In this document: one piece after another, positions 11,023 to 25,595 of the stretch
Layout: each line of letters begins with the position of its first letter
Numbering within the stretch: position 1 is the stretch's first letter
Assembly (NCBI GenBank): GCA_015232315.1
Contig: JADFZZ010000032.1
Coordinates: 796-32,795 of the forward strand
Length of the DNA: 32,000 nt
Source: SAR324 cluster bacterium
GTDB lineage: Bacteria; SAR324; NAC60-12
Reading direction: 5' to 3'
Program-made: the position numbers and the translations under genes
Notes under the pieces: model-generated
Seen by the model: the letters and a program-made list of their open reading frames with translations, nothing else
Databases searched by the model: none
What the model was told of the DNA's origin: nothing

Positions 11023-11213
11023 GAACACCTTTCGAATCAGTTTTTATGTGTTTTAATAAAATTTATTAATATCAAATATATATTAATAATAATTAAGCGG
11101 ACACTTGTTCATTAGAGCAAATGTTCTACGCTGATCATCCTGAAAAATCAATGAGAAAATTTATTGAAAGTGGGGGGCTTTTCTTGTCGAAATATTGTGT
11201 TTTTATGACGGGA

Positions 11214-12313: not shown

Positions 12314-12346
12314 TAATATTAAAAACATAAACATATGGAGGTTGAT

Positions 12347-12775: not shown

Positions 12776-12816
12776 TAAATAATTATAATCACTGAACCAA
12801 TTGATCAGGAGGTCAT

Positions 12817-13224: not shown

Positions 13225-13282
13225 CCATTGATAAGCCCTGTGCCTTGGAGCATGGGGCCTTCAGGAGAACAGGAGGATCTAT

Positions 13283-13474
13283 ATGAGAAAACAGCACGAG
13301 GAAAAGCAATTGACACATGAGGAAATTCAGCAGGCCATGCAAAATTTTCTCGCAAAAGGAAAATCCATTAAAATTCTGGCCCCACAGGAAATATACCAAC
13401 ATGATTATGTCGGTGGATACAACTGGGGACCTTATGAATCAATGGATTCTCTTGATTTTAATACGTTGTCATAA
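13283..13474 (+). CDS. 63-aa uncharacterised protein inside the Hsp20 operon
   Basis: MRKQHEEKQLTHEEIQQAMQNFLAKGKSIKILAPQEIYQHDYVGGYNWGPYESMDSLDFNTLS; strong AGGAGG Shine-Dalgarno; co-directional between hsp20 genes 2 and 3. Confidence 0.65.
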   Translation: MRKQHEEKQLTHEEIQQAMQNFLAKGKSIKILAPQEIYQHDYVGGYNWGPYESMDSLDFNTLS

Positions 13475-13533
13475 CAAAGGTTTCGCCTAATATTTCGAAG
13501 TATTATTCTTTACTTTTTATGCATGGAGGTCAT

Positions 13534-14055
13534 ATGTCATGGAAAGATTTGATCACATGGAATCAAAAAAAAGATGGATATAATAATCCTGTCAAAGTTG
13601 ACACTGCGATGGATCAACACCCGATGGTGATGTTTCATCGTGAAATGGACCGGCTATTTCAGGATTTTTTCAAGGATTTCTGGTCTCCCTCCACTTTCTG
13701 GGGCCGAGAGGGCGGCAGCATGTTTTCACCGAAACTGAATGTCAGTGAGGATGAAAAACAGATTGATGTGACTCTTGAAATTCCGGGGATGGACGAAAAG
13801 GACATTCGAATTTCCCTGAAGGATGACATTCTGTCCATCAAGGGAACGAAAAATCAGGAAAAAGAAGATAAGCAAAAAGAGTATCACCATATTGAGCGTT
13901 CCTATGGTTCGTTTCAACGATCCATTCAGTTGCCTTGTGAAGTACAGGCTGACAAAGTGCAGGCTTCCTTTAAAAAGGGCGTGTTGTCTGTGACGCTTCC
14001 CAAAGTTGAGAATGCACAATCCAGAGTACGAATCATCCCTGTTCAGGGCAACTGA
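13534..14055 (+). CDS. Hsp20/alpha-crystallin family small heat shock protein (3)
   Basis: FSPKLNVSEDEKQIDVTLEIPGMDEKDIRISLKDDILSIKGTKNQEKE...YHHIERSYGSFQRSIQLPCEVQADKVQASFKKGVLSVTLPK; GGAGG before ATG 13534. Confidence 0.95.
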   Translation: MSWKDLITWNQKKDGYNNPVKVDTAMDQHPMVMFHREMDRLFQDFFKDFWSPSTFWGREGGSMFSPKLNVSEDEKQIDVTLEIPGMDEKDIRISLKDDILSIKGTKNQEKEDKQKEYHHIERSYGSFQRSIQLPCEVQADKVQASFKKGVLSVTLPKVENAQSRVRIIPVQGN

Positions 14056-14233: not shown

Positions 14234-15211
14234 ATGAAACGGTTACTCATTACATTGATGTTATTATCATGCTGCTGGCTGACAGCCATGGCGGAAGAAA
14301 CAGAAAAATCCAGTATTTTCTGGGAGGATCGGGAGATTGGTCAACTGGAAAATATGACGCCGGAATTGCTGGCCGCTGTCAAGCGCATGCATAACCGGAT
14401 TCCCTCGGTCGCAATTTCGACCACCACCATCGATGAAAATCTGAGTCCCAAATTAAGAAGGGTTCTGGTTTCCCGATTGTATGAAATATTGACCACGGAT
14501 GTGGCCTTGAAAATCGGAAAATGCGATGAATGCGGGCAGATACGCAGTGAGCTTTCCGGAAGTTTTCTCAAAATCAGTCGCGGCATCGCGGAAGATGCCT
14601 ACCGACGTTCCAAAGCACGTGAACTGAATGTCGCAGGATTTCTGGACATTTCTGTTTTCATGAGCGAACGGCAACTTTCTGTCACCTTCACCGCTTATGA
14701 TGCCCAGGATGGAAAAATTGCGTTTTCGGAGATCATCACCGGTGATCCGGGTGGACGAACAGAATATACCAATATCTATCTGGGACGATTCAACATTCCA
14801 ATTGCCATTGATGGCACATCCATTGATCATTCAGCCTATATTCTTGGAATGGAACTTTCCAAGCGCATATCGGAATCATGGTTGTTTGCAGGAAATGTGG
14901 CACTTCTGACAGACAATAACAGCAAGTTGACCACCAAATATCCTGACAGTATTTCAGGATTGATGATTGACGGCACTGCCATGTATGAGATGGTTCAGGC
15001 TCTTGGCGGTCGTGCGACAATCGCGGGTGTATTGGGCATGGGGCAATTATTGGCTCCCGCCTTGACGTCACCGTTTTATGCTAAAGTCGGAACAAAAATC
15101 GCGGTAGGTGAGAAACTCACCATTAATCTGCATTATATGTCATTCATCCCTGCCTTGACGACTCCTGAAACAACTGGTGCGACGTATATGGCTTTAGGAT
15201 GGCAGTGGTAA
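14234..15211 (+). CDS. Secreted protein, possible CsgG/FlgO-like or envelope assembly factor
   Basis: Signal peptide MKRLLITLMLLSCCWLTAMAEE; VAISTTTIDENLSPKLRRVLVSRLYEILTT...ELNVAGFLDISVFMSERQLSVTFTAYDAQDGKIAFSEII has CsgG/FlgO-like character; GKCDECG motif. Co-directional with the downstream genes (41-nt gap). Confidence 0.6.
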   Translation: MKRLLITLMLLSCCWLTAMAEETEKSSIFWEDREIGQLENMTPELLAAVKRMHNRIPSVAISTTTIDENLSPKLRRVLVSRLYEILTTDVALKIGKCDECGQIRSELSGSFLKISRGIAEDAYRRSKARELNVAGFLDISVFMSERQLSVTFTAYDAQDGKIAFSEIITGDPGGRTEYTNIYLGRFNIPIAIDGTSIDHSAYILGMELSKRISESWLFAGNVALLTDNNSKLTTKYPDSISGLMIDGTAMYEMVQALGGRATIAGVLGMGQLLAPALTSPFYAKVGTKIAVGEKLTINLHYMSFIPALTTPETTGATYMALGWQW

Positions 15212-15252: not shown

Positions 15253-16578
15253 ATGCGTCAATTTCGTAAATATGCGGCATGGCTGTTATTGACAGGAGGT
15301 CTCGCAGGATGTTCCTCCTCCGCTGAAGAGGTGGAAAGTGCCCCCAAAGTATCCAGACAAACCATTTATAATCAGTTCATTGATGGTGGAAAAAGCTCAA
15401 TCAGCGTTCTGGAGGAAACCATTGGTGGTAAAAAGCAGATCCGGATTGTGCTGAAAAAAGAGGGCGTTGATTCCAGCATCACACACCCTATCGACAATCC
15501 AAATTTCGTGATCGCAGTCCCACTGCATGATCCTACCAGTGCCAGAGTCGGTATTCAGACCATTGATTTTGAAAATGAAAAACGACGTTTGATTGAAGAA
15601 TTACTGCTGAGGTATATTCCACGTGATCGTTTCAATGTTTCCATTAAACTGTTTTGGGATGAAAAACGACTGGAAGAACTCCAACTCAAGGGGGTGCCAT
15701 TTCAAGAATCAATGGGAAGCACACAACCCGTCCCAACAGCATCAACCAAAGCGCCCGATAAATTGAATTATGAACTGGAACAGGCCGTGATTCGGCAGGA
15801 AACCAGGATTATGCTGGACAACACACTGCCAGCATATCAGGAAAAATTTGTCCGACTGCTACTGCCTTCCCAAACTTTTTTTGTCAAATCACGCGGAGAC
15901 ACGGCCACCGTGGAGCGTGTGATTTTCCCCAAGGCATCACCCGAAAGTATTGCGCCTGAGGAAGAACGACTGATCCGTGAAAAAGTACAGAAAATGATTC
16001 AGGAATATCTGAGTCAGGATGATTTTGTGGTCAATGTCCGGCTCAGTATGAAAGGTGGACAAAACATTCAGAGCATCACTGGACAGGGCGATCAGATTTC
16101 TGTGGCCTCCATGTCCACTGCAACGGATCAGGTGAGTGACCGCATGAATATCAATATCAATGTTCTGCTCAATGATCTGACCTCTCCGGATACCGATGAG
16201 TTTCTCCGCAACACGATTCCCTATGCCATTCACATGGACATGGCGGATGGCGACCAGTTGACCATCACCCGCAAACGGTTTCCGGAAAAAGATTATGGTC
16301 AGATTTCGCCACAACAGGTTGCGCAACTGGAAGAATACAAACGGGAAATTCTTACCGCTTTTGAATCAGGGAATTATGCAGGTGGCCTGGATCTGGTTAA
16401 AAAGGCCATGAAGATCAGTGTAAAACGGGACGACCGCCTGAGTTTGCTAAAAATGCAGGGGTCGCTGTATTTTCTGCTTCAGGACAAACAGCGTGCTCGC
16501 GAAACATGGGAGCATTTGATCAAACTTGATCCGGAAAACGAAGAAGCAAAACAAATGCTTATGAATTTGGTGAAATGA
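15253..16578 (+). CDS. Lipoprotein with repeated FliF/YscJ-collar-like modules and C-terminal TPR-like repeats
   Basis: Lipobox LAGC in MRQFRKYAAWLLLTGGLAGCSSS; DDFVVNVRLSMKGG...ININVLLNDLTSPDTDEFLRNTIPYAIHMDMADGDQLTI; TPR-like SLYFLLQDKQRARETWEHLIKLDPENEEAKQ. Confidence 0.6.
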   Translation: MRQFRKYAAWLLLTGGLAGCSSSAEEVESAPKVSRQTIYNQFIDGGKSSISVLEETIGGKKQIRIVLKKEGVDSSITHPIDNPNFVIAVPLHDPTSARVGIQTIDFENEKRRLIEELLLRYIPRDRFNVSIKLFWDEKRLEELQLKGVPFQESMGSTQPVPTASTKAPDKLNYELEQAVIRQETRIMLDNTLPAYQEKFVRLLLPSQTFFVKSRGDTATVERVIFPKASPESIAPEEERLIREKVQKMIQEYLSQDDFVVNVRLSMKGGQNIQSITGQGDQISVASMSTATDQVSDRMNININVLLNDLTSPDTDEFLRNTIPYAIHMDMADGDQLTITRKRFPEKDYGQISPQQVAQLEEYKREILTAFESGNYAGGLDLVKKAMKISVKRDDRLSLLKMQGSLYFLLQDKQRARETWEHLIKLDPENEEAKQMLMNLVK

Positions 16579-17855
16579 CCATGAGACTGAAACGATTTGG
16601 ACTGACATTGTTATGTTTGGGACTGACCGGAATGTTTTTCGGAACATTTTACGCGGCAGAACCGGAATCCTCTGCTGTAACCGCAGAAATGCCTAGCAGA
16701 CCTTCCATTTTGCCTGATTCCGCTATGGATATTCCGGCGGAAATGCCAGTTGTGCCAGAAGCACCCGCGACGACTGCGGTGCCTGTTACATCAACCGCGC
16801 CCTCAAAGGCCGCGGACTCTACTGTTGTGCCCCCTGCGCCCGTAAAAGCAGGCAATGCTTCTGCTCCAACGATGCCAGTGCAGGAACAGCCAAGACGGCC
16901 CGAACCACGAAACACCAACGAAATTATTTCCGCGCCCTTTGAACAATTGAAAAAACTGTATGGCAAACCTGAGGGGACAACCCTGGAACAACCAGCAGAA
17001 GTGGACCAGAAACCAAAACAACCTGAAGTTGTTGAAACCAAAACGAAGTCACCGATTGAAGAAATGGATTTGCCTTCGCTTTCAGAGCAACAGGAAACGG
17101 AACGGAATCTTGAGTTCAAACTGGAAACAGCCCTGAAAGAATTATTGCTGGACAAATATGTTCAGGTCAAAGTGATTGTCCATTATCTCGTCAATACTGT
17201 TCCAATCACTGAAAGCAACAAGCAAATATCACAAATGCGGCTTCCGGGATTTAAAAATCAGGTGTGGGTGCCGATTGATCAGAAAAAAGTAACAGGCCTG
17301 GTGCATCGGTTGACACGTTACAACAGTATTTTTGTGGTGGTCAATCAGCCGGTATCACCGTTTGATCTGGAAGTCCTGCGACAAAAACTGAATGCAAAAA
17401 TCGCTGAAATTGATCTGGAAACCAATGATTTTCTTAAAGTCGCTTATGTTCCACTGGCAGAAATGCCAGGAACTGAAAAGCCAATGGCATCCCAACCGGA
17501 AACTCAGTCAGAGGCCACTGATCAGGTTGAAAAAATGCCTGAACCTGAAATAACGCCAGAACCGCCCAAACTTGTTTCAGCCAATGAACAACGCGATGTC
17601 GAAGTAAAATCAGCCAAGCAATTGCTCGAAGCACGCACCGCGTTTTTCAGGAATGACCTGAAAGAAGCGTTGGATAAAATCAATAAAGCCATTGAAATGA
17701 ATCCTGACTCCGCACAGGGCTATGCCATGCTGGGGTCGGTGTATTATCGCCTGAAATGGTATGGACAGGCAAAAAAACACTGGAAAAAATCTCTGGAACT
17801 GGAGCCTGACAATCCTTTGATTGCTCAGTATCTCGAACGATTGGAGAACGAATGA
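16575..17855 (+). CDS. Secreted or membrane-anchored protein with Pro-rich linker, collar-like domain and C-terminal TPR-like repeats
   Basis: N-terminal hydrophobic segment LTLLCLGLTGMFFGTFYAAEP; long P/A/E-rich linker; YVQVKVIVHYLVNT...MRLPGFKNQ...SIFVVVNQPVSPFDLEVLRQKLNAKIAEID; TPR SAQGYAMLGSVYYRLKWYGQAKKHWKKSLELEPDNPLIAQYLERLE. Start overlaps the upstream stop (ATGA). Confidence 0.6.
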   Translation: MTMRLKRFGLTLLCLGLTGMFFGTFYAAEPESSAVTAEMPSRPSILPDSAMDIPAEMPVVPEAPATTAVPVTSTAPSKAADSTVVPPAPVKAGNASAPTMPVQEQPRRPEPRNTNEIISAPFEQLKKLYGKPEGTTLEQPAEVDQKPKQPEVVETKTKSPIEEMDLPSLSEQQETERNLEFKLETALKELLLDKYVQVKVIVHYLVNTVPITESNKQISQMRLPGFKNQVWVPIDQKKVTGLVHRLTRYNSIFVVVNQPVSPFDLEVLRQKLNAKIAEIDLETNDFLKVAYVPLAEMPGTEKPMASQPETQSEATDQVEKMPEPEITPEPPKLVSANEQRDVEVKSAKQLLEARTAFFRNDLKEALDKINKAIEMNPDSAQGYAMLGSVYYRLKWYGQAKKHWKKSLELEPDNPLIAQYLERLENE

Positions 17856-19744
17856 TGGCACGCTATCTTAAAACAGGTTGGATCTGTCTGTTGCTGAGCC
17901 TATGCGTTTCAGGGCATGTATGGGCTGAAGAACGCATCACATCCCTGCCTGCGAAACAGTATGAAATTGAATCGGCCATTCACAACAGCCTGCGGCATTA
18001 TATGGAACCACAGGACTATGTGATCAAAGTCTGGCTGAAGGGAAAGAAAAAAACCATTGAGACCTTCCCTTTCAAAAATTTCAGTTCATCAACGGATGAA
18101 GTCCTGCCCGGATTCGGTACACCGCCCTCGCCTGTAACCAACGAAGACCCTGTCGCCGTTGAAGGCGAAACTTACTGGGTTGTGGAACAGATGCGTGTGG
18201 ATTTGATTCTTTACAAAGAAATATCTCCATCGCTGGCCACCTATATCACAGAGATCATTCCCGTCTTAAGCGGAATGAATTCTCAACGTGGCGATGTATT
18301 CAATTTTATGCCGATCAAACCCAAACCACTTGAAAGCGACAGTCCCAGACCGTTGAATCCTGATGGCAGTGCCATGGATGGTGCGTCGTCATCTTCAGAT
18401 CAGGCTGTCGCCACACCTGAACCGGAACCAACCCTTGAACAAATGCTGATTCCGCAAACACCAATGGAATGGCTACAGGCAGGGGTGAGTTTGCTGTTAT
18501 TGCTCCTGATCCTCTTTATTTTCTGGAGAATCATTAAATTACAGAAACAGCAGAAAGCCGCGCAGGCCGCCCAGGAAAAATCCGCTGTGGACATCCGGGA
18601 TCTGGTGCCTTCTCCGCAAAACGCCATCGCGACGATTCAACAGGCTCGTCAAGATCTGGTGCGCCGGCAGGATGAGCATGTTCAGGAAATATTGCTGGTT
18701 GAAGAAAACAACCGGCTTTTGCAGGAAATCATCAAACAACTGGTAGGACGTGAAGACTGGAAACAGCATCTGATTGAGGAAATGACACGGGATAAACAGT
18801 CCACCGAAGCCTTCACACGGTTGCTGGCCATGATGGGACCCCAGACGGCCCGCCGGCTGTTTTCCGAACAGTTGGGACATGAGGCCTATCTGGATCTGGA
18901 ACAACTGGCCCGGGATCTTTCGTTCACACCACAAGAGGCCAATTCGATTCTGAAGGATATCTGGACATTTTTATTCACTAAAAAGCTGACCTTGCCTGAA
19001 AAAGTAGCGACGGATCCTTTTGGTTATCTGTTGAAATTGTCTACCGGGCAAATCGCGTTTTTGCTCAAGGATGAACCGGTCAAAATCAAGGCACTGGTTG
19101 TCAGTCGCCTGAACAGTGAACAGGCAACAGAAGTGATCGGACATTTCCCGAAAGATGAACGGACTCAGGTCATGCTGCATCTGGGCAAGATGGAGGAACT
19201 TCCTCTCGAACTGGTGTCGCAGGTCGCTTATAATCTGGCTGACAAGGTACGAAGCCTGCCTGACAGCAATACTGTCGCGGTCAATGGAGTGAATCTCGTG
19301 ATTGATGTCCTGGGTGAGGTCGAACATGGAGTTCGGCAGGACATCATCAACGGCTTGCGGATTTCTGATCAGCGTTTGAGTGATATGGTGGAAAGCCGGT
19401 GTTTCATTTTTGAATCCATTCCGTTTGTACCCAAAGAAGTTTTGATGGAAGTGGTCCGTCGTTTACCGCTGGATGATGTCATTATTGCGATCTCCGGTGC
19501 GACAAAAGAAATCAAGGAAGCCGTCATCCTGTGTTTTCCTGAGCAAAACCGTCAGGCGATTGTATCTGCCTTGAAAGCAAAAACACCATCCCCGGATGAC
19601 ATTCGGGAAAAACGCAGGGTGTTTGCCCAATCCATGCGTGGCATGGCAGAAAACAACAGGGTCGATTTGAAAGAAATCAACACCGCGTGGGCCCAACAGC
19701 ACGATGCTGTTCCAGCCCTGAATTTTGAACAGCAGGAGTCATAG
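17852..19744 (+). CDS. Chimeric membrane protein: FliF-collar-like periplasmic domain, one TM, and FliG-like middle and C-terminal domains
   Basis: Signal peptide 1-25; MRVDLILYKEISPSLATYITEIIPVLSGMNSQRGDVFNF; TM about 208-226 (LQAGVSLLLLLLILFIFWRI); FliG-like DEPVKIKALVVSRLNSEQATEVIGHFPKDERTQVMLHLGKMEEL...LVIDVLGEVEHGVRQDIINGLRISDQRLSDMVESRCFIFESIPFVPKEVLMEVVRRLPLDDVIIAISGATKEIKEAVILCFPEQNRQAIVSAL. ATGA overlap with the upstream gene. Confidence 0.75.
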   Translation: MMARYLKTGWICLLLSLCVSGHVWAEERITSLPAKQYEIESAIHNSLRHYMEPQDYVIKVWLKGKKKTIETFPFKNFSSSTDEVLPGFGTPPSPVTNEDPVAVEGETYWVVEQMRVDLILYKEISPSLATYITEIIPVLSGMNSQRGDVFNFMPIKPKPLESDSPRPLNPDGSAMDGASSSSDQAVATPEPEPTLEQMLIPQTPMEWLQAGVSLLLLLLILFIFWRIIKLQKQQKAAQAAQEKSAVDIRDLVPSPQNAIATIQQARQDLVRRQDEHVQEILLVEENNRLLQEIIKQLVGREDWKQHLIEEMTRDKQSTEAFTRLLAMMGPQTARRLFSEQLGHEAYLDLEQLARDLSFTPQEANSILKDIWTFLFTKKLTLPEKVATDPFGYLLKLSTGQIAFLLKDEPVKIKALVVSRLNSEQATEVIGHFPKDERTQVMLHLGKMEELPLELVSQVAYNLADKVRSLPDSNTVAVNGVNLVIDVLGEVEHGVRQDIINGLRISDQRLSDMVESRCFIFESIPFVPKEVLMEVVRRLPLDDVIIAISGATKEIKEAVILCFPEQNRQAIVSALKAKTPSPDDIREKRRVFAQSMRGMAENNRVDLKEINTAWAQQHDAVPALNFEQQES

Positions 19745-19765: not shown

Positions 19766-20725
19766 ATGAAAGACACCATTGGCACACTTCTGGGCTTTTT
19801 AATTGGTATTTCCCTCGTCTTGTTTGGAATCACCTGGCCTGATCATTTGTCCAACTATTACATGTATCAGTTGCGCGAATATGAAATGGCCACAAAGCAG
19901 ATGAAAAAAGACGGGGTGCCTCGCAACCAGATTCAGGAACTTGAACAGAAATTCTCAGAGTTTCAGGATTCATGGATCGGAACCATGTCCCGCTTTATTG
20001 ATCTCAAATCGTTTTTGATTGTGATGGGCGGCGCCTATTCCGCGATGATGGTCGCGTTTCCGTTTGACAAGGCGATGGGGGCTTTTGTGTTCATTGTCAG
20101 GGTGTTTGCGTCATCCGTGAAGAAGGAAGAATTTCTGGATGTGTATCACACCGTTCTCAAACTGGCTGAAAAACGAGTGAACAATGCCATCCTCACCGAT
20201 GAGGATATCAATGCTATTCATTCAGTGGATCTAAAACGTTGGGTTCAGGATTTCATTGTGGTCGATATCGTTGAAGAAAACATGATTGAGGAAATTGTTC
20301 GATCGGAAATTGAAATGTACAATTATCGTTCTTTTGAAGAAATTGATGTCCTCAATTTTCTTGGTGCCGCGTCTCCCGCTTTTGGAATGCTCGGTACCGT
20401 GGTTGGTCTGATTCTGATGCTGGGAAATACGGGTGGTGATGTAGCCGGTGTGATGGGGGGAATGTCCATTGCGTTGATCACGACATTGTATGGAGTGTTT
20501 CTGGCCCAGATCATGTTTTTGCCGATAGCATCCAAACGCTATCAAATGAAAGAGTCGCACATCATGTTGCTGGAAATGATCAGAGAAGGTCTGCTCTATC
20601 TCAAACGGCGTGAAATTCCTGATACGATCTCCCAGGATTTAATCATTTATCTGCCTCTCAAAATGCGTCAGAAAATCACTGAAGAAAAAATGGCGGCGAT
20701 GCGTGAGGGTAATTTGGGATTGTGA
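19766..20725 (+). CDS. MotA/ExbB-family proton-channel (stator) subunit, divergent MotA
   Basis: FIDLKSFLIVMGGAYSAMMVAFP; FLGAASPAFGMLGTVVGLILML...MSIALITTLYGVFLAQIMFLPIASK, matching MotA TM2-TM4; 319 aa. Confidence 0.9.
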   Translation: MKDTIGTLLGFLIGISLVLFGITWPDHLSNYYMYQLREYEMATKQMKKDGVPRNQIQELEQKFSEFQDSWIGTMSRFIDLKSFLIVMGGAYSAMMVAFPFDKAMGAFVFIVRVFASSVKKEEFLDVYHTVLKLAEKRVNNAILTDEDINAIHSVDLKRWVQDFIVVDIVEENMIEEIVRSEIEMYNYRSFEEIDVLNFLGAASPAFGMLGTVVGLILMLGNTGGDVAGVMGGMSIALITTLYGVFLAQIMFLPIASKRYQMKESHIMLLEMIREGLLYLKRREIPDTISQDLIIYLPLKMRQKITEEKMAAMREGNLGL

Positions 20726-20728: not shown

Positions 20729-21376
20729 ATGGCCAATCGAAAAGACGCATCAACCGAAACCCCTGCATGGGTGGTTTCTTTTGCCGATCTGATGAGCTTG
20801 CTGTTCAGCTTTTTTGTGCTGCTCACCACACTTTCCACTCAGCCGAAAAATTGCGAGGGCATCCGTGAATATATGGAAAACAACAAGGCGTTTTTTAAAA
20901 ACTATGAACTTCGATCCACTAAACTGAGTTGCATTGTTTCCTTACCTCAAGATTATCTGTTCAAATCAGGACAAGGCAAAATCCAGCCTTCGGCCTTCAA
21001 AGCGCTCACTCCATTTTTTGAGAAAATCCGCGATCTGCCGGAACATCGTGAAGATCTGTTGATTGTGGAAGGTCACACCGACAATGTGCCCATCCATACC
21101 CGTGAATTTCCCAGCAATTGGGAACTCAGCTCGGCCAGAGCCACCAATATTTCCGTATTCATGATGGAAAAACTCAAATTTGCCCGCGAACGACTGTCCG
21201 TTTCGGCCTATGCGGATTCGCGTCCCAAAACCCCCTATGTAGACACTTACGGCAAACCATTAACCGGCAAGGACCTCCAGAATGCTCGACAAACCAACCG
21301 TCGAGTTGAAATCATTCTGACAACACCCCCCAAATCCCTTGAGGAAACCACCATGCTGTTTGATGGTCGGGAATAA
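20729..21376 (+). CDS. MotB-like stator subunit with OmpA/peptidoglycan-binding domain
   Basis: WVVSFADLMSLLFSFFVLL (conserved Asp TM); LFKSGQGKIQPSAFKAL...LLIVEGHTDNVPIHTREFPSNWELSSARATN; 215 aa, 3 nt after the MotA-like stop. Confidence 0.92.
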   Translation: MANRKDASTETPAWVVSFADLMSLLFSFFVLLTTLSTQPKNCEGIREYMENNKAFFKNYELRSTKLSCIVSLPQDYLFKSGQGKIQPSAFKALTPFFEKIRDLPEHREDLLIVEGHTDNVPIHTREFPSNWELSSARATNISVFMMEKLKFARERLSVSAYADSRPKTPYVDTYGKPLTGKDLQNARQTNRRVEIILTTPPKSLEETTMLFDGRE

Positions 21377-21842
21377 GGCCCTCATCTGACCTCATCAATA
21401 CTGTGTGAATTATTTTTTCACGATAATGAGGCCATATTATGCAATATTAACTCATGTGATGCAATAAACTTTTTTAAATAAAAAATATGAGTTTTCTCAT
21501 CACAACGCCGCTAACGCAGAGGGCCAATGGCTGACAGTTCGCACTCTGAATCATTTCGGATTGAGGAAACAAAAAACTTTGATTTCAGCCGGATATATTG
21601 TCAGTTACCACAAAGTGCTGTCCATTGAAAACAAGCCTGGCAGGCGTAAAGAGCATTCAAAAAAAACTCCTTGACGAAGGGCTAGTGAATACGCTACATG
21701 CATATCTAATATCTAACAAAGGCCAGGGGAGGATCTTTGTTTACAACGATTTCCCAAATCGGGGGGGATTAACCAGCCCCCTGTAAACATTGGCAATTGT
21801 GAGATATTGTTTATTTTTTTAACTAATCTCTTTGGAGGAAGT

Positions 21843-22427
21843 ATGAAAATGTTCAAACAATGGAAAAAAAGATGGGCTGGATTCAGTCTTGTAGAAATTG
21901 TAATCGCCATCGCGGTCATCGGGATCATGTCTGCGGCGTCAGTGCCCCTGATCAAAAGCACACTCGATAAATCAAAAAATTCCCGCGCAAAAAGCGAACT
22001 GGAAGAAATACGAAATGCGTCTGTGTCATTTTATGGCGATACCTTTCAGGTTCCCGGTAATATTGGATGTACCAAGACAGCCACAACCCATCTGCTGACA
22101 GATACAGCAGCGGCAAAAATTGACATGTCCAAAGCAGGGACTGTGACATCTGATGATCTGGATGCGCATTTCAATACGAACTGTACAGGTGCCAATGCCG
22201 GTAAATATACAGACAATAGCTTGGGTGGCGCCTGGAGAGGCCCATACATGGAAGCTGATCGCTATGATCCATGGCAAAAATCTTATGTATTGGTCACAAA
22301 TACATTTGGAACTACTGATACCGCATCCGGTTATGCTCTTTCCGGTGGAACCGATGAGCAGGTCAACACTGCCAAGGCTACAGCCGCAAGTACCAGTGAT
22401 GTATATATCAAAGTCAGTCTGAAATAA
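21843..22427 (+). CDS. Type IV pilin / type II secretion pseudopilin (GspG-like)
   Basis: Class III signal MKMFKQWKKRWAG|FSLVEIVIAIAVIGIMSAASVPLIKSTLDKSK, with GGAGG Shine-Dalgarno and ATG at 21843. Confidence 0.88.
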   Translation: MKMFKQWKKRWAGFSLVEIVIAIAVIGIMSAASVPLIKSTLDKSKNSRAKSELEEIRNASVSFYGDTFQVPGNIGCTKTATTHLLTDTAAAKIDMSKAGTVTSDDLDAHFNTNCTGANAGKYTDNSLGGAWRGPYMEADRYDPWQKSYVLVTNTFGTTDTASGYALSGGTDEQVNTAKATAASTSDVYIKVSLK

Positions 22428-22440
22428 TTTTTCCTCATAA

Positions 22441-22465
22441 GGCGGGTCACTCCCGCCTTTCTTTT
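22441..22465 (+). terminator. Rho-independent terminator after the pseudopilin gene
   Basis: GGCGGG-TCACT-CCCGCC followed by TTTCTTTT. Confidence 0.8.
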
Positions 22466-25341
22466 AGCTGACGATTCAGCTCTTCAAAGTGATTTCCCAT
22501 CCAACTCAACAGTTTCTTCTCATGCGGTGGAAAGCGTGTGTCAGACATGATGAATGTCTGGAAAATTTGAAGATACATGGCTTTTTCTCCGGCTTTCAGC
22601 ATTTCGACCTCCATTGCGCTCAGAAATACAGGATTGTATTTGGGCGGTGATGAATTTTGCAGGATGTTCCTGATTAAATCTTTCAGGTGATCCAACTGGT
22701 CCGTATACAGAAAATCCAGAAACAGAAATTCATCCTGAAACTTTTTTGGGGGAATATCCTTTCGGACTAGCTCACGATACAATGTGACAGCTTCCAGTTT
22801 ATCCCACATTTGTGCCATATTTCTGGGGTGCGTGATTTTTTTGAATTGATGATCAATCTCATTCCAGTTGGAATTTTTGCGGGCAATTCGCAGGGAATCT
22901 GTCAGCCATTCCAATTTTTCTGAAGGAATTGGCGGAGCATTTTTAAAATAATCTGTTTGAGCTCTGGAAAAATTTTCTGGTTCCAGAATTTCCTGATAAA
23001 ATGAAATAGCATTTATAAATGACCAGAACAAATCCACTTCCTGACTCAGAAACAACGCTTTTTCCGCACTGTTATCAACCAGAGGGAAAAAATATGAATT
23101 GGGATTCACATCTTCCAGAATAGGGCGTAGACTCTGGGTTGAAACAATAAAATTCTGAGGGCCGAACAAACGGGTATCCCCCTTGAATTTCAAAAATTCC
23201 TGAGCAATCTCTGGTTCTCGTTCAAAACGATCAATGGCATCCAGATTGAAATCAGTGTTGCCTGCAACAATCACATAATTTGCTTCACCAGCCAGATATA
23301 TTTTTGCGTAGGGAAAACGATTATCCAGAGCCTTGATAATGGTCAGCATGAGTTCTGTGTTGAAGGAATAACCATGGACCCATTGGACCAGTAAGCCTTC
23401 TGGTTTTAGAAATCGTTGGATGTGCTCGTAGAATTCTTCGGTGAACAGGCTCGAAACACCACTGACCCAAGGATTTGATGGTTCTGAAATGATAAGGTCA
23501 TATTGTCTGTTGGCCTGATAGAAATAGGTTTTGGCATCATCAAAAATAGGACGGATTTTGGGACTGTCATACACATTTCGATTATAAGGATAGAAATTTT
23601 TTGCCAATTCATACATCTGTTCTTCAATTTCGATCAAATCCAGATGTTTTAACAAGGGGTCGGATAGCAGATAGTGTGCAGACATACCACTGCCCAACCC
23701 GATCATTGCGGCGTCATAAGGCTGATTCATCGCAGCCATCGGAACAAACGCGGCAGCGGCCTGAGTATATTCATCTTCAGATATGGTGCCTTTCAATCCG
23801 ATACTCGCATCAACCTTGCCATTTGTTGCGATCATTGACCTGAATGGATTGAACGTGAATGAGATGGTTGCTGTTTTTCCATCCTTGACGAGTATTTGAT
23901 GAAAATCTCCGGCATTCAGCTTGCCACGAAAAACACCTATTGTGGTAAGATTCGGGTCAAGTTTGATATGCAATACAGGAATAAAGACCAGCACAGAAAC
24001 GCAGAGTGTCGCAATGAACTTCCATCGGGAAAGCTTATAGGCACCCAGCAGCACAAGTCCCAGACCGATATCAATCAAAGCTCCTGAGGCAATGGTGTAT
24101 TTGATCTGAAAATTCGGCAATAGCAATAACCCTCCCAGAGAGGCGCCAAGTATGGCTCCTATCGTATTCCAGCCATATACAAATCCAGTGTATTTTTCAT
24201 TGCGTGTAAAATTGATCAGATAATAAGTGATCAATGGCAGTGTCATTCCCGCAAAGAAACTGGTGGGTGCCATCATCAATAGGCAGATCAGATATTTGAA
24301 TATGGAATAGACTGGATAGGCGAGTTCTGTTTTTCTGAATACAGAATGTGAGTCGCTGATCGCGTAAAAAAACGGCTCGTAAAAATAGATGCTGCTCAAC
24401 GCAAACGCCCCCATGAGAATCTGGATGAAAGCCAACGTATGCGCGATGTTTCGTGAAGAGTCAATCAGCTTGCGGGCATAACCGCCTCCCAGGGCCAACC
24501 CCAGGATGAACGCGGAAATCATGATATCAAACGAATGGGTTGAAGATCCCAGCAACAACCCCAGAAGCCTGATCCAGCCAACTTCGTAAATGAAGGATGA
24601 AAACCCTGTCAGACCGCTGATCAACAACCATAGTCCAATGGTGCGCTGATCCGGAAGTTCATGTGAAATTTCCTTGTGAGATTCCGCACCGGAAAAAGAT
24701 TCTGTTATTTTGGGGCCAATGATTTTATCAGCTTTTTTGGCGATGAAATAAAACATCAATGCAATCAGTACATTGGAAGAACCAGCAATGGCGAGAGTTC
24801 CTATGGTTCCCATTTCCGGAATGAGCAGATAGGAAGTCGCCAGAATTCCAATGGCGGCACCCAGAGAATTGGTGAAATATAACACAGGCAGTGAAGAACG
24901 TCCTTCATCTCTGCTGACACGAATGACACCCACTGTGATGAATGGAAAAGTCATTCCAAGCAGGATCGCGGTCGGGAGCGTCATCAGCATGGAGATCAGC
25001 ACCTTGGTCAGATTGGCAAACCAGAAAGACGAAAAATATACATTGGCGGCTTCATAAAACCATTGGGTACAGACTAGATAAATTCCGTGGAAGACAAAAC
25101 CTGAAACGCCCACCAGCAACTCAATGGCAGCATAGACATAAAATGGATTCCGGATATTCCGACAGAGTCGTCCTGCCAGAAACGACCCGATGCCGAGTCC
25201 ACCCATAAAAATGGAAAGTGTCAGGATCTGACCATAAAACGAATGTCCGAGAAATAATTTAAGATACCGGGACCACAGTGATTCATAAATAAGACCAACA
25301 AATCCTGAAACAACGAACAGACCATAAATCAGGCGAACCAT
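22447..25341 (-). CDS. Fused MFS-like membrane domain and spermidine-synthase-like methyltransferase-fold protein
   Basis: Multiple TMs starting SGFVGLIYESLWSRYLKLFLGHS; C-terminal AAMIGLGSGMSAHYLLSDPLLKHLDLIEIEEQMYELAKNF...YDLIISEPSNPWVSGVSSLFTEEFYEHIQRFLKPEGLLVQW; ATG start 25341 (the ORF track uses TTG 25347). Confidence 0.85.
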   Translation of the reverse strand: MVRLIYGLFVVSGFVGLIYESLWSRYLKLFLGHSFYGQILTLSIFMGGLGIGSFLAGRLCRNIRNPFYVYAAIELLVGVSGFVFHGIYLVCTQWFYEAANVYFSSFWFANLTKVLISMLMTLPTAILLGMTFPFITVGVIRVSRDEGRSSLPVLYFTNSLGAAIGILATSYLLIPEMGTIGTLAIAGSSNVLIALMFYFIAKKADKIIGPKITESFSGAESHKEISHELPDQRTIGLWLLISGLTGFSSFIYEVGWIRLLGLLLGSSTHSFDIMISAFILGLALGGGYARKLIDSSRNIAHTLAFIQILMGAFALSSIYFYEPFFYAISDSHSVFRKTELAYPVYSIFKYLICLLMMAPTSFFAGMTLPLITYYLINFTRNEKYTGFVYGWNTIGAILGASLGGLLLLPNFQIKYTIASGALIDIGLGLVLLGAYKLSRWKFIATLCVSVLVFIPVLHIKLDPNLTTIGVFRGKLNAGDFHQILVKDGKTATISFTFNPFRSMIATNGKVDASIGLKGTISEDEYTQAAAAFVPMAAMNQPYDAAMIGLGSGMSAHYLLSDPLLKHLDLIEIEEQMYELAKNFYPYNRNVYDSPKIRPIFDDAKTYFYQANRQYDLIISEPSNPWVSGVSSLFTEEFYEHIQRFLKPEGLLVQWVHGYSFNTELMLTIIKALDNRFPYAKIYLAGEANYVIVAGNTDFNLDAIDRFEREPEIAQEFLKFKGDTRLFGPQNFIVSTQSLRPILEDVNPNSYFFPLVDNSAEKALFLSQEVDLFWSFINAISFYQEILEPENFSRAQTDYFKNAPPIPSEKLEWLTDSLRIARKNSNWNEIDHQFKKITHPRNMAQMWDKLEAVTLYRELVRKDIPPKKFQDEFLFLDFLYTDQLDHLKDLIRNILQNSSPPKYNPVFLSAMEVEMLKAGEKAMYLQIFQTFIMSDTRFPPHEKKLLSWMGNHFEELNRQLKERRE

Positions 25342-25595
25342 AGACAATTCTCAAGAGAAGAGGATATTAAAAATAAAAATGCATAGCAGATGTTATTCAT
25401 GACGGTCAAGTGCGATTCTTTTCAAACAGAATATTGCTATCCGTCGCAGAATGTATTAGTTGTTCCCTGCTGGTAATCTGGACTTTCCCTATGGGATTCT
25501 GAGCTATTTTCCCGGAGGGGTAAATGAATCATCCTTAGCGTGAAAAATTAAAATCCATTCGTGTAACGTGTTCATGTTTTATTAATCTTTATTCA

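What the first reader, a model, noticed from the sequence alone, without database searches (positions are those of the whole stretch)
17852..19744. FliF-collar-like domain, TM and FliG fused in one polypeptide
The 630-aa protein has a signal peptide, a periplasmic stretch (MRVDLILYKEISPSLATYITEIIPVLSGMNSQRGDVFNF) resembling the FliF/YscJ C-terminal periplasmic pattern ending in RGD, one TM at about residue 208-226, and an apparently complete FliG middle + C region. The DEPVKIKALVVSRLNSEQATEVIGHFP segment corresponds to the EHPQ..A.IL..L.pe.AaevL..LP segment of FliG, and LSDMVESRCFIFESI to LAeeIRklMFvFEdI. A membrane-tethered rotor protein that bypasses a separate FliF ring would be a different motor layout from the flagellar C-ring.
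Basis: partly seen in the sequence, partly recalled or inferred. Interest (0 to 1): 0.92.

Follow-up and report, generated by a model that had tools for sequence, protein, structure and literature searches.

The report
Natural mini FliF–FliG fusion rotor module
This gene encodes one membrane protein that joins the ring-forming domain of the flagellar protein FliF to a full copy of the rotor protein FliG, and it sits in a conserved, undescribed gene module with its own MotA/MotB ion-driven stator and an outer-membrane partner; this looks like a stripped-down rotary motor built from flagellar parts without the secretion machinery.

Summary
ORF 17852-19744 (630 aa, SAR324 MAG) has a signal peptide, a periplasmic domain, one TM helix and a cytoplasmic FliG-like region. 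The periplasmic domain's best matches by fold and by sequence are the FliF RBM3/collar, including the RGD motif. The cytoplasmic region covers FliG N, M and C; FliG_M and FliG_C pass Pfam thresholds.

It is not a canonical FliG or FliF:
- it scores far below the FliG equivalog cutoff;
- it lacks RBM1 and RBM2;
- only the Glu of the FliM-binding EHPQR motif is kept.

The gene always follows X1 (an OMP-like barrel), X2 (two RBM3-like domains plus TPR) and X3 (TPR). In many SAR324 lineages, including this window, a flagellar-type MotA/MotB pair is adjacent. A distant clade that includes Fibrobacterota MAGs carries FliG-like–X1–TPR–MotA–MotB in 31 of 32 loci. No flagellar export, rod or switch genes are linked.

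Best reading (about 0.5): the rotor ring of a self-contained, MotAB-driven, envelope-spanning machine. Main rival (about 0.3): an accessory of the SAR324 flagellar motor, because marine SAR324 keep the orthologous motAB next to a flagellin gene. I found no published description. Rotation and independence from the flagellum are inferred, not shown.

The parts
14234..15211 (+). X1: secreted protein with a periplasmic N-terminal part and an outer-membrane beta-barrel-like C-terminal half. First gene of the module.
   Evidence: Signal peptide MKRLLITLMLLSCCWLTAMA; the protein ends ...GWQW. The marine ortholog hits Pfam OMP_b-brl at E=1.7e-5, 25.5 bits, just below the 28.7-bit threshold. Present directly upstream of X2 in 33 loci. 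Homologous over its full length to the ~360-aa partner of the distant clade (hhalign 97.2%, E=3e-11, 302 columns); C-termini end in F or W.
15253..16578 (+). X2: lipoprotein with two FliF-RBM3-like domains (residues ~100-229 and ~234-347) and a C-terminal TPR.
   Evidence: Lipobox ...LAGC. hhalign of the RBM3-like family profile A6 against X2: 97.2% (E=4e-11) and 95.4% (E=1.6e-8). Weak TPR hit. Adjacent to X3 and the FliG-like gene in every locus with enough flank.
16575..17855 (+). X3: secreted protein with a Pro/Ala/Glu-rich linker, a possible RBM-like domain carrying an LPGF loop (residues ~170-293), and a C-terminal TPR. Its start overlaps the X2 stop and its stop overlaps the FliG-like start.
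   Evidence: TPR_2 at 39.6 bits, above threshold. The TPR is homologous to that of X2 (hhalign 94%). The RBM-like match is weak (31% probability, E=5e-4, 119 columns, LPGF aligned). Four-base overlaps at both ends.
17852..19744 (+). The FliG-like gene of the finding: a natural mini FliF-FliG fusion of 630 aa.
17852..17926 (+). Signal peptide (residues 1-25).
   Evidence: Hydrophobic N-terminus followed by VWA|EE. A25 and E27 are invariant in the close family.
17927..18331 (+). Periplasmic FliF-RBM3/collar-like domain (residues 26-160). The LPG motif (85-87) is invariant at the tip of a long beta-hairpin, G147 and D148 are invariant, and R146 is nearly invariant (RGD, 146-148).
   Evidence: AF2 domain model, pLDDT 84. 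Top 17 Foldseek PDB hits are all FliF RBM3. Top hmmsearch hit against PDB sequences is FliF, with RGD aligned. Invariant columns across 31 diverse members.
18473..18529 (+). Single transmembrane helix (residues ~208-226), followed by a basic cytoplasmic stretch.
   Evidence: Hydrophobicity and positive-inside analysis of 31 members; helix 204-243 in the model.
18599..19027 (+). Cytoplasmic linker (residues 250-392): a long helix with the conserved LVGRxDW motif (G299, R300, D302 and W303 are invariant in the close family), then a FliG_N-like domain (LIAxxGPxTARxLF).
   Evidence: Top PDB profile hit is FliG_N in the FliF-FliG complex (5tdy_B, E=0.027). Foldseek covers all 321 residues of full-length FliG 3hjl. 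Invariant residues.
19049..19264 (+). FliG middle domain (residues 400-471). Only E408 of the EHPQR motif is conserved.
   Evidence: Pfam FliG_M, 54 bits. Residue frequencies by clade.
19355..19666 (+). FliG C-terminal domain (residues 502-605). The MFxF-like hinge is conserved (CFIFESIP). The torque-helix equivalent is FPEQNRQAIVSALK.
   Evidence: Pfam FliG_C, 52.3 bits. Alignment to T. maritima FliG. Clade-specific charges.
19766..20725 (+). MotA: a flagellar-type stator A subunit with a conserved periplasmic insertion of about 50 residues between TM1 and TM2 (WPDHLSNYY...FQDSW).
   Evidence: Pfam MotA_ExbB, 76 bits. Best NCBIfam matches are MotP/PomA/MotA, all below their cutoffs. PDB flagellar MotA 6ysf/8ucs at E~1e-25, aligned from residue 72 onward. 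The insertion is conserved in SAR324 orthologs. Genomic linkage.
20729..21376 (+). MotB: stator B subunit with a plug, the channel Asp (SFADLM) and an OmpA-type peptidoglycan-binding domain.
   Evidence: Pfam MotB_plug at 40.4 bits and OmpA at 49.1 bits. PDB MotB/PomB hits, with the TM segment aligned to C. sporogenes MotB.
21807..22427 (+). Pseudopilin-like gene downstream. Its membership in the module is doubtful.
   Evidence: N_methyl and T2SSG hits; GspG-like N-terminus. The only strong terminator-like hairpin lies after it (22439-22459), and none follows motB. It is not found downstream of motB in strain TL4.

Best explanation
The 630-aa protein is a natural, shortened FliF-FliG fusion. 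After signal-peptide cleavage, one FliF-RBM3/collar-like domain sits in the periplasm. A single TM helix crosses the inner membrane. A complete FliG-like N-M-C unit sits in the cytoplasm.

Proposed mechanism:
1. Subunits oligomerise through the RBM3-like domain into a membrane-embedded ring. This ring is an MS-ring and FliG-ring in one polypeptide.
2. The ring is turned by the co-encoded flagellar-type MotA5B2 stator units, which are anchored to peptidoglycan and use ion flow through the conserved MotB Asp.
3. Motion or force passes through the periplasmic RBM3-like/TPR proteins X2 and X3 to the outer-membrane barrel protein X1.

The module has no type III export gate and no rod, hook or FliM/FliN switch. 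I therefore read it as a self-contained, envelope-spanning rotary or force-transducing machine that is distinct from the cell's canonical flagellum. Its output is unknown.

Shown: the domain architecture, the topology, the homologies and the gene linkage.
Inferred: ring formation, rotation, contact between the FliG-like domain and MotA, coupling to X1-X3, and independence from the flagellum.
For: Architecture and homology:
- FliG_M and FliG_C pass Pfam thresholds.
- PDB FliG sequence hits.
- Full-length FliG by Foldseek.
- FliG_N is the top PDB hit for the linker.
- FliF RBM3 fills the top 17 fold hits for the isolated domain.
- FliF is the top PDB sequence hit, with RGD aligned.
- Topology follows the positive-inside rule.

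Stator competence:
- MotA matches flagellar stators, not ExbB/TolQ.
- MotB has a plug, the channel Asp and a peptidoglycan-binding domain.

Linkage:
- In this window the six genes are tightly packed, with 4-base overlaps at X2/X3 and X3/FliG-like.
- X1-X2-X3-FliG-like is found in every SAR324/Lambdaproteobacteria locus with enough flank.
- motAB is adjacent in two different gene orders in 13 further distinct loci.
- In a distant clade (FliG-like proteins 30-40% identical to the query P0175, host GC 34-65%), 31 of 32 loci carry FliG-like-X1-TPR-MotA-MotB.
- X1 is homologous across the two clades.

Self-containment:
- Only these families recur near the gene.
- Recurrent neighbours are housekeeping genes, none flagellar.
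- No flagellin occurs in any of the roughly 90 loci fetched around a FliG-like gene.

Rotor-stator interface:
- The distant clade keeps canonical-like charges. Rotor R at the R281 position in 29/29 and E at the D289 position in 18/29. Stator K/R at the R90 position in 18/28 and D/E at the E98 position in 14/28.
- SAR324 changes both partners together. The rotor position two residues after the D289 position is K/R in 31/32. The stator R90 position is neutral, with an invariant D145 plus an E/D patch.

Not a canonical FliG: TIGR00207 scores 74 against a cutoff of 226.7, and EHPQR is lost.
Against: - No experiment or structure of the assembly exists. Ring formation and rotation are inferred only from homology.
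- In the marine SAR324 clade motAB is not next to the module. The orthologous motAB pair lies about 2.4 kb from a flagellin gene, which fits this MotAB being the flagellar stator.
- SAR324 genomes are reported to carry flagellar motility genes (PMC9031357), so independence from the flagellum cannot be shown by a non-flagellated carrier.
- I could not count motAB paralogs or confirm canonical fliF/fliG in any carrier genome.
- The charge co-variation rests on one split between two clades and tolerates a one-residue alignment shift (R137 could be the R90 equivalent).
- The sequence-level FliF and FliG_N matches are marginal (E=0.055 and 0.027) and rely on agreement with the fold results.
- The full-length model has low global confidence (pLDDT 68, pTM 0.30).
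- The X3 RBM-like assignment is weak.
Confidence: 0.5

Rival explanations
1. Accessory of the flagellar motor. The MotAB encoded here is the normal flagellar stator of these bacteria. X1, X2, X3 and the FliG-like protein form extra rings or scaffolds around the canonical basal body, and they recruit, position or gear the stators. This would resemble the periplasmic TPR/ARM-like scaffolds of other complex motors.
For: - Marine SAR324 keep the orthologous motAB (61-65% identity, same insertion) as a free-standing pair about 2.4 kb from a flagellin gene.
- The window itself has a flagellin gene about 11 kb upstream of the module (1674-3359).
- All SAR324 genomes in one survey carry flagellar motility genes (PMC9031357).
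- Known complex motors use TPR proteins (PflA, PflB, MotC, MotK, FlcA/B) and FliG/MgtE_N-like ARM rings (FlgY, FlbB, MotE) to hold stators (PMC13023049).
- MotA and MotB are of the flagellar type, with a plug.
Against: - No known stator scaffold contains a FliF RBM3 domain or a complete cytoplasmic FliG. The known ARM-like rings are periplasmic, whereas here the FliG-like part is cytoplasmic.
- The module is never embedded in flagellar gene clusters in any of the loci examined.
- In the distant clade motAB is strictly operonic with the FliG-like gene (31 of 32 loci), which suggests the stator belongs to this rotor.
- NCBI's annotation names this MotA only as a MotA/TolQ/ExbB family protein, and it is below all flagellar stator equivalog cutoffs.
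- A second FliG ring engaging the same stators has no precedent.
Confidence: 0.3
2. Non-rotating anchor or regulator. The FliG-like domains bind MotA without being driven round. The protein could be a docking platform or reservoir for stator units, a brake or clutch, or a sensor that couples stator activity or ion flow to the envelope through X1-X3.
For: - The canonical torque-helix charges are altered in SAR324, and the FliM interface is lost.
- A PilZ gene lies beside a third-clade member (L005). This recalls c-di-GMP brakes that act at the MotA-FliG interface, which is a point from my own knowledge.
- Nothing in the data demonstrates rotation.
Against: - The RBM3/collar fold is known from ring-forming proteins (FliF, SpoIIIAG).
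- The whole FliG N-M-C unit and the MFxF hinge are conserved.
- The distant clade keeps canonical-like rotor and stator charge residues.
- A regulator would not be expected to need an outer-membrane partner and TPR lipoprotein conserved across phyla.
Confidence: 0.12
3. It is simply the organism's flagellar MS-ring and FliG, rearranged into one gene. In that case it would be the only fliF/fliG in the genome.
For: - Engineered FliF-FliG fusions form rings (PDB 8z4d/8z4g; PMC10941966 and PMC6079021).
- Flagellin genes are present.
- I could not inspect whole genomes for canonical fliF/fliG.
Against: - It lacks RBM1 and RBM2. The periplasmic part is only about 130 structured residues, and no YscJ_FliF Pfam hit appears.
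- The EHPQR FliM-binding motif is lost.
- It scores far below the FliG equivalog cutoff.
- No fliM, fliN, fliE, flhA or fliPQR was seen nearby in any locus whose genes were annotated.
- It is always partnered with an OMP and TPR proteins instead.
Confidence: 0.03
4. A Zorya-like anti-phage defence system, which also uses MotAB-like proteins.
For: MotB hits ZorB models in PADLOC (E=1e-20), through the shared MotB/OmpA homology.
Against: - MotA does not hit ZorA, and no ZorC/D/E-like genes are present. The other five module proteins have no PADLOC hit.
- MotA and MotB are flagellar-type, with a plug.
- The module sits among housekeeping genes with stable synteny.
Confidence: 0.01

Closest known systems
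Flagellar MS-ring/C-ring core: FliF plus FliG driven by MotAB (including engineered FliF-FliG fusion proteins, e.g. PDB 8z4d/8z4g)
   Same: - The periplasmic domain has the FliF RBM3/collar fold and FliF's RGD motif.
- A TM helix precedes a FliG N-M-C unit, in the same order and topology as FliF followed by FliG.
- The MFxF hinge is conserved.
- The partner is a flagellar-type MotA/MotB with a plug, the channel Asp and a peptidoglycan-binding domain.
   Different: - One polypeptide instead of two.
- No RBM1 or RBM2.
- A cleavable signal peptide in place of FliF's first TM.
- EHPQR reduced to a single Glu.
- Torque-helix charges altered in SAR324.
- Far below the FliG equivalog score.
- No linked export-gate, rod, hook or FliM/FliN genes.
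- Obligate partners are an OMP-like barrel and TPR (lipo)proteins.
- MotA has a periplasmic insertion of about 50 residues.
Flagellar stator scaffolds and E-rings: PflA/PflB/FlgY (Campylobacterota), FlbB/FlcA/FlcB (spirochaetes), MotE/MotC/MotK (Alphaproteobacteria)
   Same: Periplasmic TPR proteins and FliG/MgtE_N-like ARM domains act together with MotAB. The genes lie outside the main flagellar clusters (PMC13023049).
   Different: In those systems the ARM-like heads are periplasmic, and none has an RBM3 domain, a full FliG, or an OMP partner. Here the FliG-like region is cytoplasmic, and motAB is part of the operon.
Other ring-building-motif proteins: SpoIIIAG (sporulation channel), SctJ/SctD (injectisome inner-membrane rings)
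   Same: The same alpha-beta-beta-alpha-beta ring-building fold. SpoIIIAG, like FliF RBM3, has a beta-hairpin insertion. Both appear as weaker fold hits (5wc3 E=0.07; 6rwx E=0.19).
   Different: These hits are much weaker than FliF RBM3. Those proteins have no FliG fusion and no stator partner, and they serve secretion or feeding channels.
Non-flagellar 5:2 ion-driven motors that energise the outer envelope: GldLM/PorLM (T9SS/gliding), TolQR-TolA-Pal-CpoB, ExbBD-TonB, AglRQS-Glt, ZorAB
   Same: An inner-membrane MotAB-family motor is genetically coupled to periplasmic (often TPR) proteins and an outer-membrane component, which suggests energy transfer across the envelope.
   Different: Those systems pass force through a periplasmic arm of the B-type subunit or its partner and have no FliG-like cytoplasmic rotor. 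Here the stator is of the flagellar type, with a torque-generating interface and a plug (classification framework from PMC12505986). PADLOC excludes Zorya.

Membership tests
FliG (flagellar motor switch protein; TIGR00207, Pfam FliG_N/M/C) | FliG middle and C-terminal domains | tested here: met
   PF14841 at 54 bits (threshold 25) and PF01706 at 52.3 bits (threshold 23.3). PDB FliG middle+C at E=3e-14.
FliG (flagellar motor switch protein; TIGR00207, Pfam FliG_N/M/C) | FliG N-terminal (FliF-binding) domain | tested here: inconclusive
   Pfam FliG_N hits only the M region (18.5 bits, below threshold). However, Foldseek aligns all 321 residues of 3hjl, and the top PDB profile hit for residues 250-392 is FliG_N (5tdy_B, E=0.027).
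FliG (flagellar motor switch protein; TIGR00207, Pfam FliG_N/M/C) | Whole-protein equivalog score (orthology to flagellar FliG) | tested here: not met
   TIGR00207 scores 74.1 bits against a cutoff of 226.7. NF004260 scores 32.6 against 550.
FliG (flagellar motor switch protein; TIGR00207, Pfam FliG_N/M/C) | EHPQR motif that binds FliM | tested here: not met
   Only E408 is conserved (32/32 and 29/29). The H position is P or S. The P and Q positions vary. The R position is E/Q in SAR324 and mostly K in the distant clade.
FliG (flagellar motor switch protein; TIGR00207, Pfam FliG_N/M/C) | Torque-helix charged residues (E. coli R281, D288, D289) | tested here: inconclusive
   Distant clade: R in 29/29 at the R281 position and E in 18/29 at the D289 position. 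SAR324 clade: K/Q at the R281 position, S at D288, S/A/T at D289, and K/R two residues after the D289 position. Positions are mapped through the T. maritima alignment and my recollection of E. coli numbering.
FliG (flagellar motor switch protein; TIGR00207, Pfam FliG_N/M/C) | Soluble cytoplasmic protein of about 330 aa encoded with fliF/fliM in flagellar clusters | tested here: not met
   The protein is 630 aa with a signal peptide and a TM helix. No flagellar genes occur within 8-10 kb in the loci examined.
FliF (MS-ring protein; Pfam YscJ_FliF + YscJ_FliF_C) | RBM3 domain with beta-collar insertion and C-terminal RGD | tested here: met
   The top 17 Foldseek PDB hits are FliF RBM3/S-ring (E down to 3.9e-6, TM about 0.5). 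FliF is the top hmmsearch PDB hit, with RGD aligned (E=0.055, marginal).
FliF (MS-ring protein; Pfam YscJ_FliF + YscJ_FliF_C) | RBM1 and RBM2 domains (YscJ_FliF Pfam region) | tested here: not met
   No YscJ_FliF hit at E<=1. The model shows a single alpha-beta-beta-alpha-beta domain between the signal peptide and the TM helix.
FliF (MS-ring protein; Pfam YscJ_FliF + YscJ_FliF_C) | Two TM helices flanking the periplasmic region | tested here: inconclusive
   The C-terminal TM is clear. The N-terminal hydrophobic segment looks like a cleavable signal peptide (A|QE), not a retained TM. Cleavage was not tested.
FliF (MS-ring protein; Pfam YscJ_FliF + YscJ_FliF_C) | Assembly into a ring of about 33-34 subunits | not testable with these tools
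   No multimer prediction or experiment was available.
Flagellar-type stator MotA/MotB (the 'FIT' class of PMC12505986) | MotA_ExbB channel domain with the conserved prolines, closest to MotA/PomA/MotP rather than ExbB/TolQ | tested here: met
   PF01618 at 76 bits. NCBIfam MotP 122, PomA 106 and MotA 102 bits, against ExbB 20 and TolQ 19. PDB MotA at E~1e-25. The SPAFG and FLPIA prolines are aligned.
Flagellar-type stator MotA/MotB (the 'FIT' class of PMC12505986) | MotB plug, channel Asp and OmpA-like peptidoglycan-binding domain | tested here: met
   MotB_plug at 40.4 bits and OmpA at 49.1 bits. SFADLM aligns to the MotB TM segment.
Flagellar-type stator MotA/MotB (the 'FIT' class of PMC12505986) | Equivalog-level match to a characterised flagellar stator | tested here: not met
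   All NCBIfam stator models score below their cutoffs; the best is 122 against 394.
Flagellar-type stator MotA/MotB (the 'FIT' class of PMC12505986) | MotA R90/E98 rotor-contact charges | tested here: inconclusive
   SAR324: the R90 position is V/N/A/Y, R occupies the preceding position in 17/18, and the acidic patch D145 (18/18), E146, D147 lies around the E98 position. Distant clade: K/R in 18/28 at the R90 position and D/E in 14/28 at the E98 position.
Zorya anti-phage system | ZorA plus ZorB with ZorC/D (or E) effector genes | tested here: not met
   Only MotB hits ZorB. No ZorA hit and no other PADLOC hits.

The most novel reading that the evidence does not exclude
The module (FliF-RBM3/FliG fusion, OMP, TPR proteins, MotAB) is a flagellum-independent rotary motor without an export apparatus. 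It is built from the same rotor and stator parts as the flagellum, spans both membranes, and drives an as yet unknown outer-membrane or surface process. Such a 'rotor without secretion system' would be either a derived offshoot or a relative of a pre-flagellar stage. Either way it would give a living test case for how the flagellar rotor-stator pair could work, and evolve, apart from type III secretion.
Probability: 0.42. Interest if true: 0.95.

Novelty: new variant of a known kind. Interest (0 to 1): 0.85.

Why it matters
All well-studied FliG rotors sit beneath a FliF ring that also houses a type III export gate, so rotation and secretion always come together. This protein family carries only the RBM3 ring domain and FliG, fused in one chain. 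It is co-inherited with its own flagellar-type stator and with periplasmic and outer-membrane partners, and it has no export, rod, hook or switch genes.

If it is a working motor, it shows that the FliF/FliG/MotAB torque unit can be used as a stand-alone module. That would open a new class of envelope-spanning machines and bear directly on the long-standing question of how the flagellar motor arose. It may also offer a minimal five-gene rotor-stator system for reconstitution.

If it is instead a flagellar accessory, it would be the first known motor with a second, membrane-anchored FliG-like ring, which would also be new. SAR324 is one of the most abundant bacterial lineages in the deep ocean, so the module is ecologically widespread. 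At present it is mislabelled as 'FliG' or 'hypothetical' in databases.

Tried and rejected
- **Pfam YscJ_FliF on the whole protein:** no hit at E<=1. The FliF relationship appeared only with an isolated-domain model and a family profile.
- **Extending beyond the window to find canonical flagellar genes:** four exact-protein look-ups of edge genes failed, probably because the called start codons differ.
- **Literature:** nine full-text searches found no description of a TM-anchored FliG or an RBM3-FliG fusion family.
- **SAR324 genome papers:** their held supplements do not list fliF, fliG or motA.
- **Fibrobacter succinogenes lead:** the MotA/TolQ/ExbB, TPR and OmpA proteins in its cellulose proteome are ExbB/TolQ-type with TonB and ExbD, and no FliG is mentioned. 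Dropped.
- **Zorya or another defence system:** rejected.
- **Short soluble FliG-like proteins of about 310 aa from the deep search:** I considered them as the hosts' canonical FliG, but all are below the equivalog cutoff.
- **An error of mine:** X1 was first translated from 14235, which is the wrong frame, so the X1 column is invalid. It was redone from 14234.
- **A simple charge-swap reading based on two distant MotA sequences:** softened after looking at 28 sequences.
- **The broad alignment A4:** too diverse for the genome scan, so the SAR324-range alignment A5 was used.

Full report
**Observation**

An identical protein is deposited as a hypothetical protein of a SAR324 cluster MAG.

Pfam finds FliG_M at residues 400-471 (54 bits, threshold 25) and FliG_C at residues 502-605 (52.3 bits, threshold 23.3). 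phmmer against all PDB chains returns only FliG structures, with 1lkv at E=3e-14 over residues 388-572.

An AlphaFold2 model built on 16 family members has low global confidence (pLDDT 68, pTM 0.30) but clear elements:
- an N-terminal hydrophobic helix;
- an alpha-beta-beta-alpha-beta domain, with a low-confidence loop between its two beta strands;
- a disordered acidic linker;
- a TM helix from residue 204;
- a long cytoplasmic helix;
- three helical domains.

Foldseek aligns the model to full-length FliG (3hjl, 321 of 321 columns, E=9.5e-9) and, in a second tier, to FliF RBM3/S-ring structures.

**The FliF-like domain**

I modelled residues 26-160 alone with a 22-sequence alignment that reaches down to 13% identity. 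The model is confident (pLDDT 84, with 86 residues at or above 90) and has two 13-14-residue strands flanking a flexible hairpin.

Its top 17 Foldseek hits in the PDB are all FliF RBM3/S-ring/collar structures from Vibrio and Salmonella (E=3.9e-6 to 7.6e-4, TM about 0.5). OsmC-like folds, SpoIIIAG and the Shigella injectisome inner ring come far behind.

Independently, a profile of the same alignment searched against PDB sequences has FliF as its best hit (9yh6, E=0.055). The match covers nearly the whole domain and places the family's RGD on FliF's ENRGDLLNVLSMPF. That E-value is marginal alone but agrees with the fold result.

Across 31 members at 16-51% identity the invariant periplasmic residues are L85-P86-G87, at the hairpin tip, and G147-D148, with R146 nearly invariant.

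Pfam YscJ_FliF gives nothing, and there is room for only one such domain. RBM1 and RBM2 of FliF are therefore absent.

**Topology and the rest of the protein**

In 31 members the 15 residues before the main TM have a mean net charge of -1.2 and the 15 after it +2.5. The N-termini end in signal-peptidase-like A|QE sites. So the RBM3-like domain is periplasmic and the FliG-like region is cytoplasmic, as in FliF followed by FliG.

For the segment between the TM helix and FliG_M (residues 250-392), the best PDB sequence hit is the FliG N-domain of the FliF-FliG complex (5tdy_B, E=0.027; LIAvlGPetARklF on LLVALGPEKAAQVM). This agrees with the full-length Foldseek alignment.

The protein is therefore, in order: signal peptide, RBM3/collar, TM, helix, FliG N-M-C. 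It is a natural, shortened FliF-FliG fusion.

**It is not a canonical FliG or FliF**

- TIGR00207 scores 74 bits against a cutoff of 226.7.
- Of the FliM-binding EHPQR motif only the Glu (E408) is conserved, and it is invariant in both clades.
- The MFxF-type hinge is kept.

**Gene neighbourhood in the window**

Six + strand genes are tightly packed:
- X1, 14234-15211: signal peptide; the protein ends GWQW.
- X2, 15253-16578: lipobox LAGC; C-terminal TPR.
- X3, 16575-17855: signal peptide; C-terminal TPR. It overlaps X2 and the FliG-like gene by four bases each.
- The FliG-like gene, 17852-19744.
- MotA, 19766-20725.
- MotB, 20729-21376.

MotA is closest to MotP/PomA/MotA and far from ExbB/TolQ. 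It matches solved flagellar stators at E~1e-25, including the FliG-bound stator 8ucs. MotB has the plug, the channel Asp (SFADLM) and an OmpA-type domain. MotA carries a periplasmic insertion of about 50 residues between TM1 and TM2, and this insertion is conserved in all SAR324 orthologs.

X2 contains two copies of the same RBM3-like domain (hhalign 97.2% and 95.4%, E=4e-11 and 1.6e-8). X3 gives a weak full-domain match that includes an LPGF loop (31%, E=5e-4).

The marine ortholog of X1 hits the OMP beta-barrel family over its C-terminal half (E=1.7e-5, just below threshold).

PADLOC finds only generic MotB/ZorB similarity.

**Conservation in SAR324**

Close homologs (44-52% identity, 609-660 aa) are abundant in marine metagenomes. 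A scan of species-representative genomes gave 41 loci, all from SAR324, 'Lambdaproteobacteria' or unclassified MAGs.

X2, X3 and the FliG-like gene are adjacent in every locus with enough flank. After I corrected a frame error of mine, X1 was found directly upstream in 33 loci.

MotA and MotB (45-67% identity over the full length) are adjacent in 13 further distinct loci, in two different orders: downstream as here, or upstream of X1.

In the marine clade motAB is not within 10 kb. These organisms keep a full-length ortholog (61-65% identity) elsewhere as a free-standing motA-motB pair, about 2.4 kb from a flagellin gene.

Clustering all neighbouring ORFs shows that nothing else recurs across deep clades. 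The recurrent neighbours are housekeeping genes such as a heptosyltransferase, TldD/PmbA, Lon and RF3.

**A wider superfamily**

A profile search of 1.84 billion representative proteins found 3083 hits at E<=0.001. The best 150 are mostly 580-720 aa. More than 100 of them share the same layout, usually with RGD about 40-60 residues before the TM helix. Named members are Fibrobacterota/Fibrobacterales MAG proteins ('FliG-like protein', 'hypothetical'), a Pseudomonadota MAG and a 'Deltaproteobacteria' MAG.

Two contexts from this distant clade read FliG-like, a ~360-aa protein, a TPR lipoprotein, MotA, MotB. The ~360-aa protein is homologous to X1 over its full length (hhalign 97.2%, E=3e-11), and both families end in F or W.

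A metagenome scan with a profile of this clade gave 45 more loci. Of 32 loci with at least 5 kb downstream, 31 carry FliG-like-X1-TPR-MotA-MotB in that order, and none has flagellin. Only these five families recur (25-29 of 30 loci, with the next family in 8), while host GC content ranges from 34% to 65%.

MotAB is therefore an integral, co-inherited part of the module.

**Rotor-stator interface**

- **Distant clade.** It keeps canonical-like charges. The rotor has R in 29/29 at the R281 position and E in 18/29 at the D289 position. The stator has K/R in 18/28 at the R90 position and D/E in 14/28 at the E98 position.
- **SAR324.** Both partners differ. The rotor has K/Q at the R281 position, no acid at the D288/D289 positions, and K/R in 31/32 two residues further on. 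The stator is neutral at the R90 position (R in 17/18 one residue earlier) and has an invariant D145 followed by E/A and D/E.

This is what co-evolution of a contact surface would look like. However, it rests on a single split between two clades and is sensitive to a one-residue alignment shift.

**Interpretation**

The shown facts are the architecture, the topology, the homologies and the linkage. From them I infer three steps:
1. The protein oligomerises through its RBM3-like domain into a ring that is MS-ring and FliG-ring in one.
2. The co-encoded MotA5B2 units drive it.
3. It is connected through X2 and X3 to the outer-membrane protein X1.

Because no export gate, rod, hook or FliM/FliN genes are linked, and the FliM interface is lost, I favour a self-contained machine distinct from the flagellum (confidence about 0.5). 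Its output is unknown.

**Main rival (about 0.3): a flagellar accessory**

In this reading the module serves the SAR324 flagellar motor. In favour:
- marine SAR324 keep the orthologous motAB beside flagellin;
- the window has a flagellin gene at 1674-3359;
- flagellar motility genes are reported in all SAR324 genomes (PMC9031357);
- many complex motors use TPR proteins and FliG/MgtE_N-like ARM rings to hold stators (PMC13023049).

Against:
- those ARM rings are periplasmic;
- none contains RBM3 or a whole FliG;
- the module is never embedded in flagellar clusters;
- in the distant clade motAB belongs to this operon.

**Lesser rivals**

- A non-rotating stator dock or brake (about 0.12).
- The genuine flagellar rotor, rearranged (about 0.03). 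It lacks RBM1/2 and the FliM motif.
- A Zorya-like defence system (about 0.01).

**What I could not do**

- I could not inspect whole genomes for canonical fliF/fliG or for motAB copy number.
- No multimer prediction was possible.

**Novelty**

Nine full-text searches found no description of this architecture or module. Databases label members 'FliG C-terminal domain-containing', 'flagellar motor switch protein FliG' or 'hypothetical'.

I rate it a new variant of a known kind: a flagellar-type rotor-stator unit in a new architecture and a new gene module. There is roughly a 0.4 chance that it is a distinct, flagellum-independent machine.

Noticed in passing
window 19766-20725 (MotA residues ~25-75): SAR324 MotA orthologs carry a conserved periplasmic insertion of about 50 residues between TM1 and TM2 (WPDHLSNYYMYQ...FQDSW). 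It is absent from E. coli MotA, from solved stators and from the distant-clade MotA. It may contact X2, X3 or the RBM3 ring.
   Followed up: partly
window 12335-14055 (+): Three HSP20/alpha-crystallin genes lie in tandem (146, 135 and 178 aa) directly upstream of the module.
   Followed up: no
window 1674-3359 (-): A flagellin gene (Flagellin_N and Flagellin_C) lies about 11 kb upstream of the module, on the opposite strand. Its true start is probably MGMSIKHN, 22 codons inside the mechanical ORF. Marine SAR324 also have a flagellin, about 2.4 kb from their motAB ortholog (L049-L051).
   Followed up: partly
window 5733-7058 (+): A 441-aa protein combines TerB-like N-terminal segments with a C-terminal Peptidase_S24 (LexA/UmuD-like) domain. 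This is an unusual fusion.
   Followed up: no
window 7081-11028 (-): Three genes in a row are a thiolase with an N-terminal extension of about 100 aa, an SDR/enoyl-ACP-reductase-type protein with an N-terminal extension of about 240 aa, and a MaoC-like dehydratase.
   Followed up: no
window 22447-25347 (-): A 966-aa protein has a central spermidine/spermine synthase domain (residues 532-684) and long unassigned flanks.
   Followed up: no
window 21807-22427 (+) and 22439-22459: A GspG/pilin-like gene with a prepilin N-methylation motif follows motB after a 430-bp gap. The only strong terminator-like hairpin of the region lies just after it. It is not conserved downstream of motB in strain TL4.
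   Followed up: partly
L005 8456-8797 (-), next to a third-clade FliG-like gene (P0158): A PilZ-domain gene sits divergently upstream of a TPR-FliG-like-217-aa cluster that has no motAB within 10 kb. This may hint at c-di-GMP control. In this third clade the partners look different.
   Followed up: no
proteins P0161, P0178, P0259 (about 310 aa) and P0208, P0209, P0237 (about 400-445 aa): These are soluble FliG-like proteins without a TM helix. They match the family profile at 94-135 bits but also fall below the FliG equivalog cutoff (TIGR00207 scores 66-158 against 226.7). They form another set of non-canonical FliG paralogs.
   Followed up: partly
L001 11296-15904 (strain TL4, downstream of motB): Two large proteins (789 and 693 aa) with CarboxypepD_reg and Calx-beta-like domains directly follow motB in TL4. 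They may be surface or cargo proteins of the module in that lineage.
   Followed up: no
L006 15221-18982: In one distant-clade genome a 1253-aa TPR plus transglutaminase-core protein follows motB.
   Followed up: no
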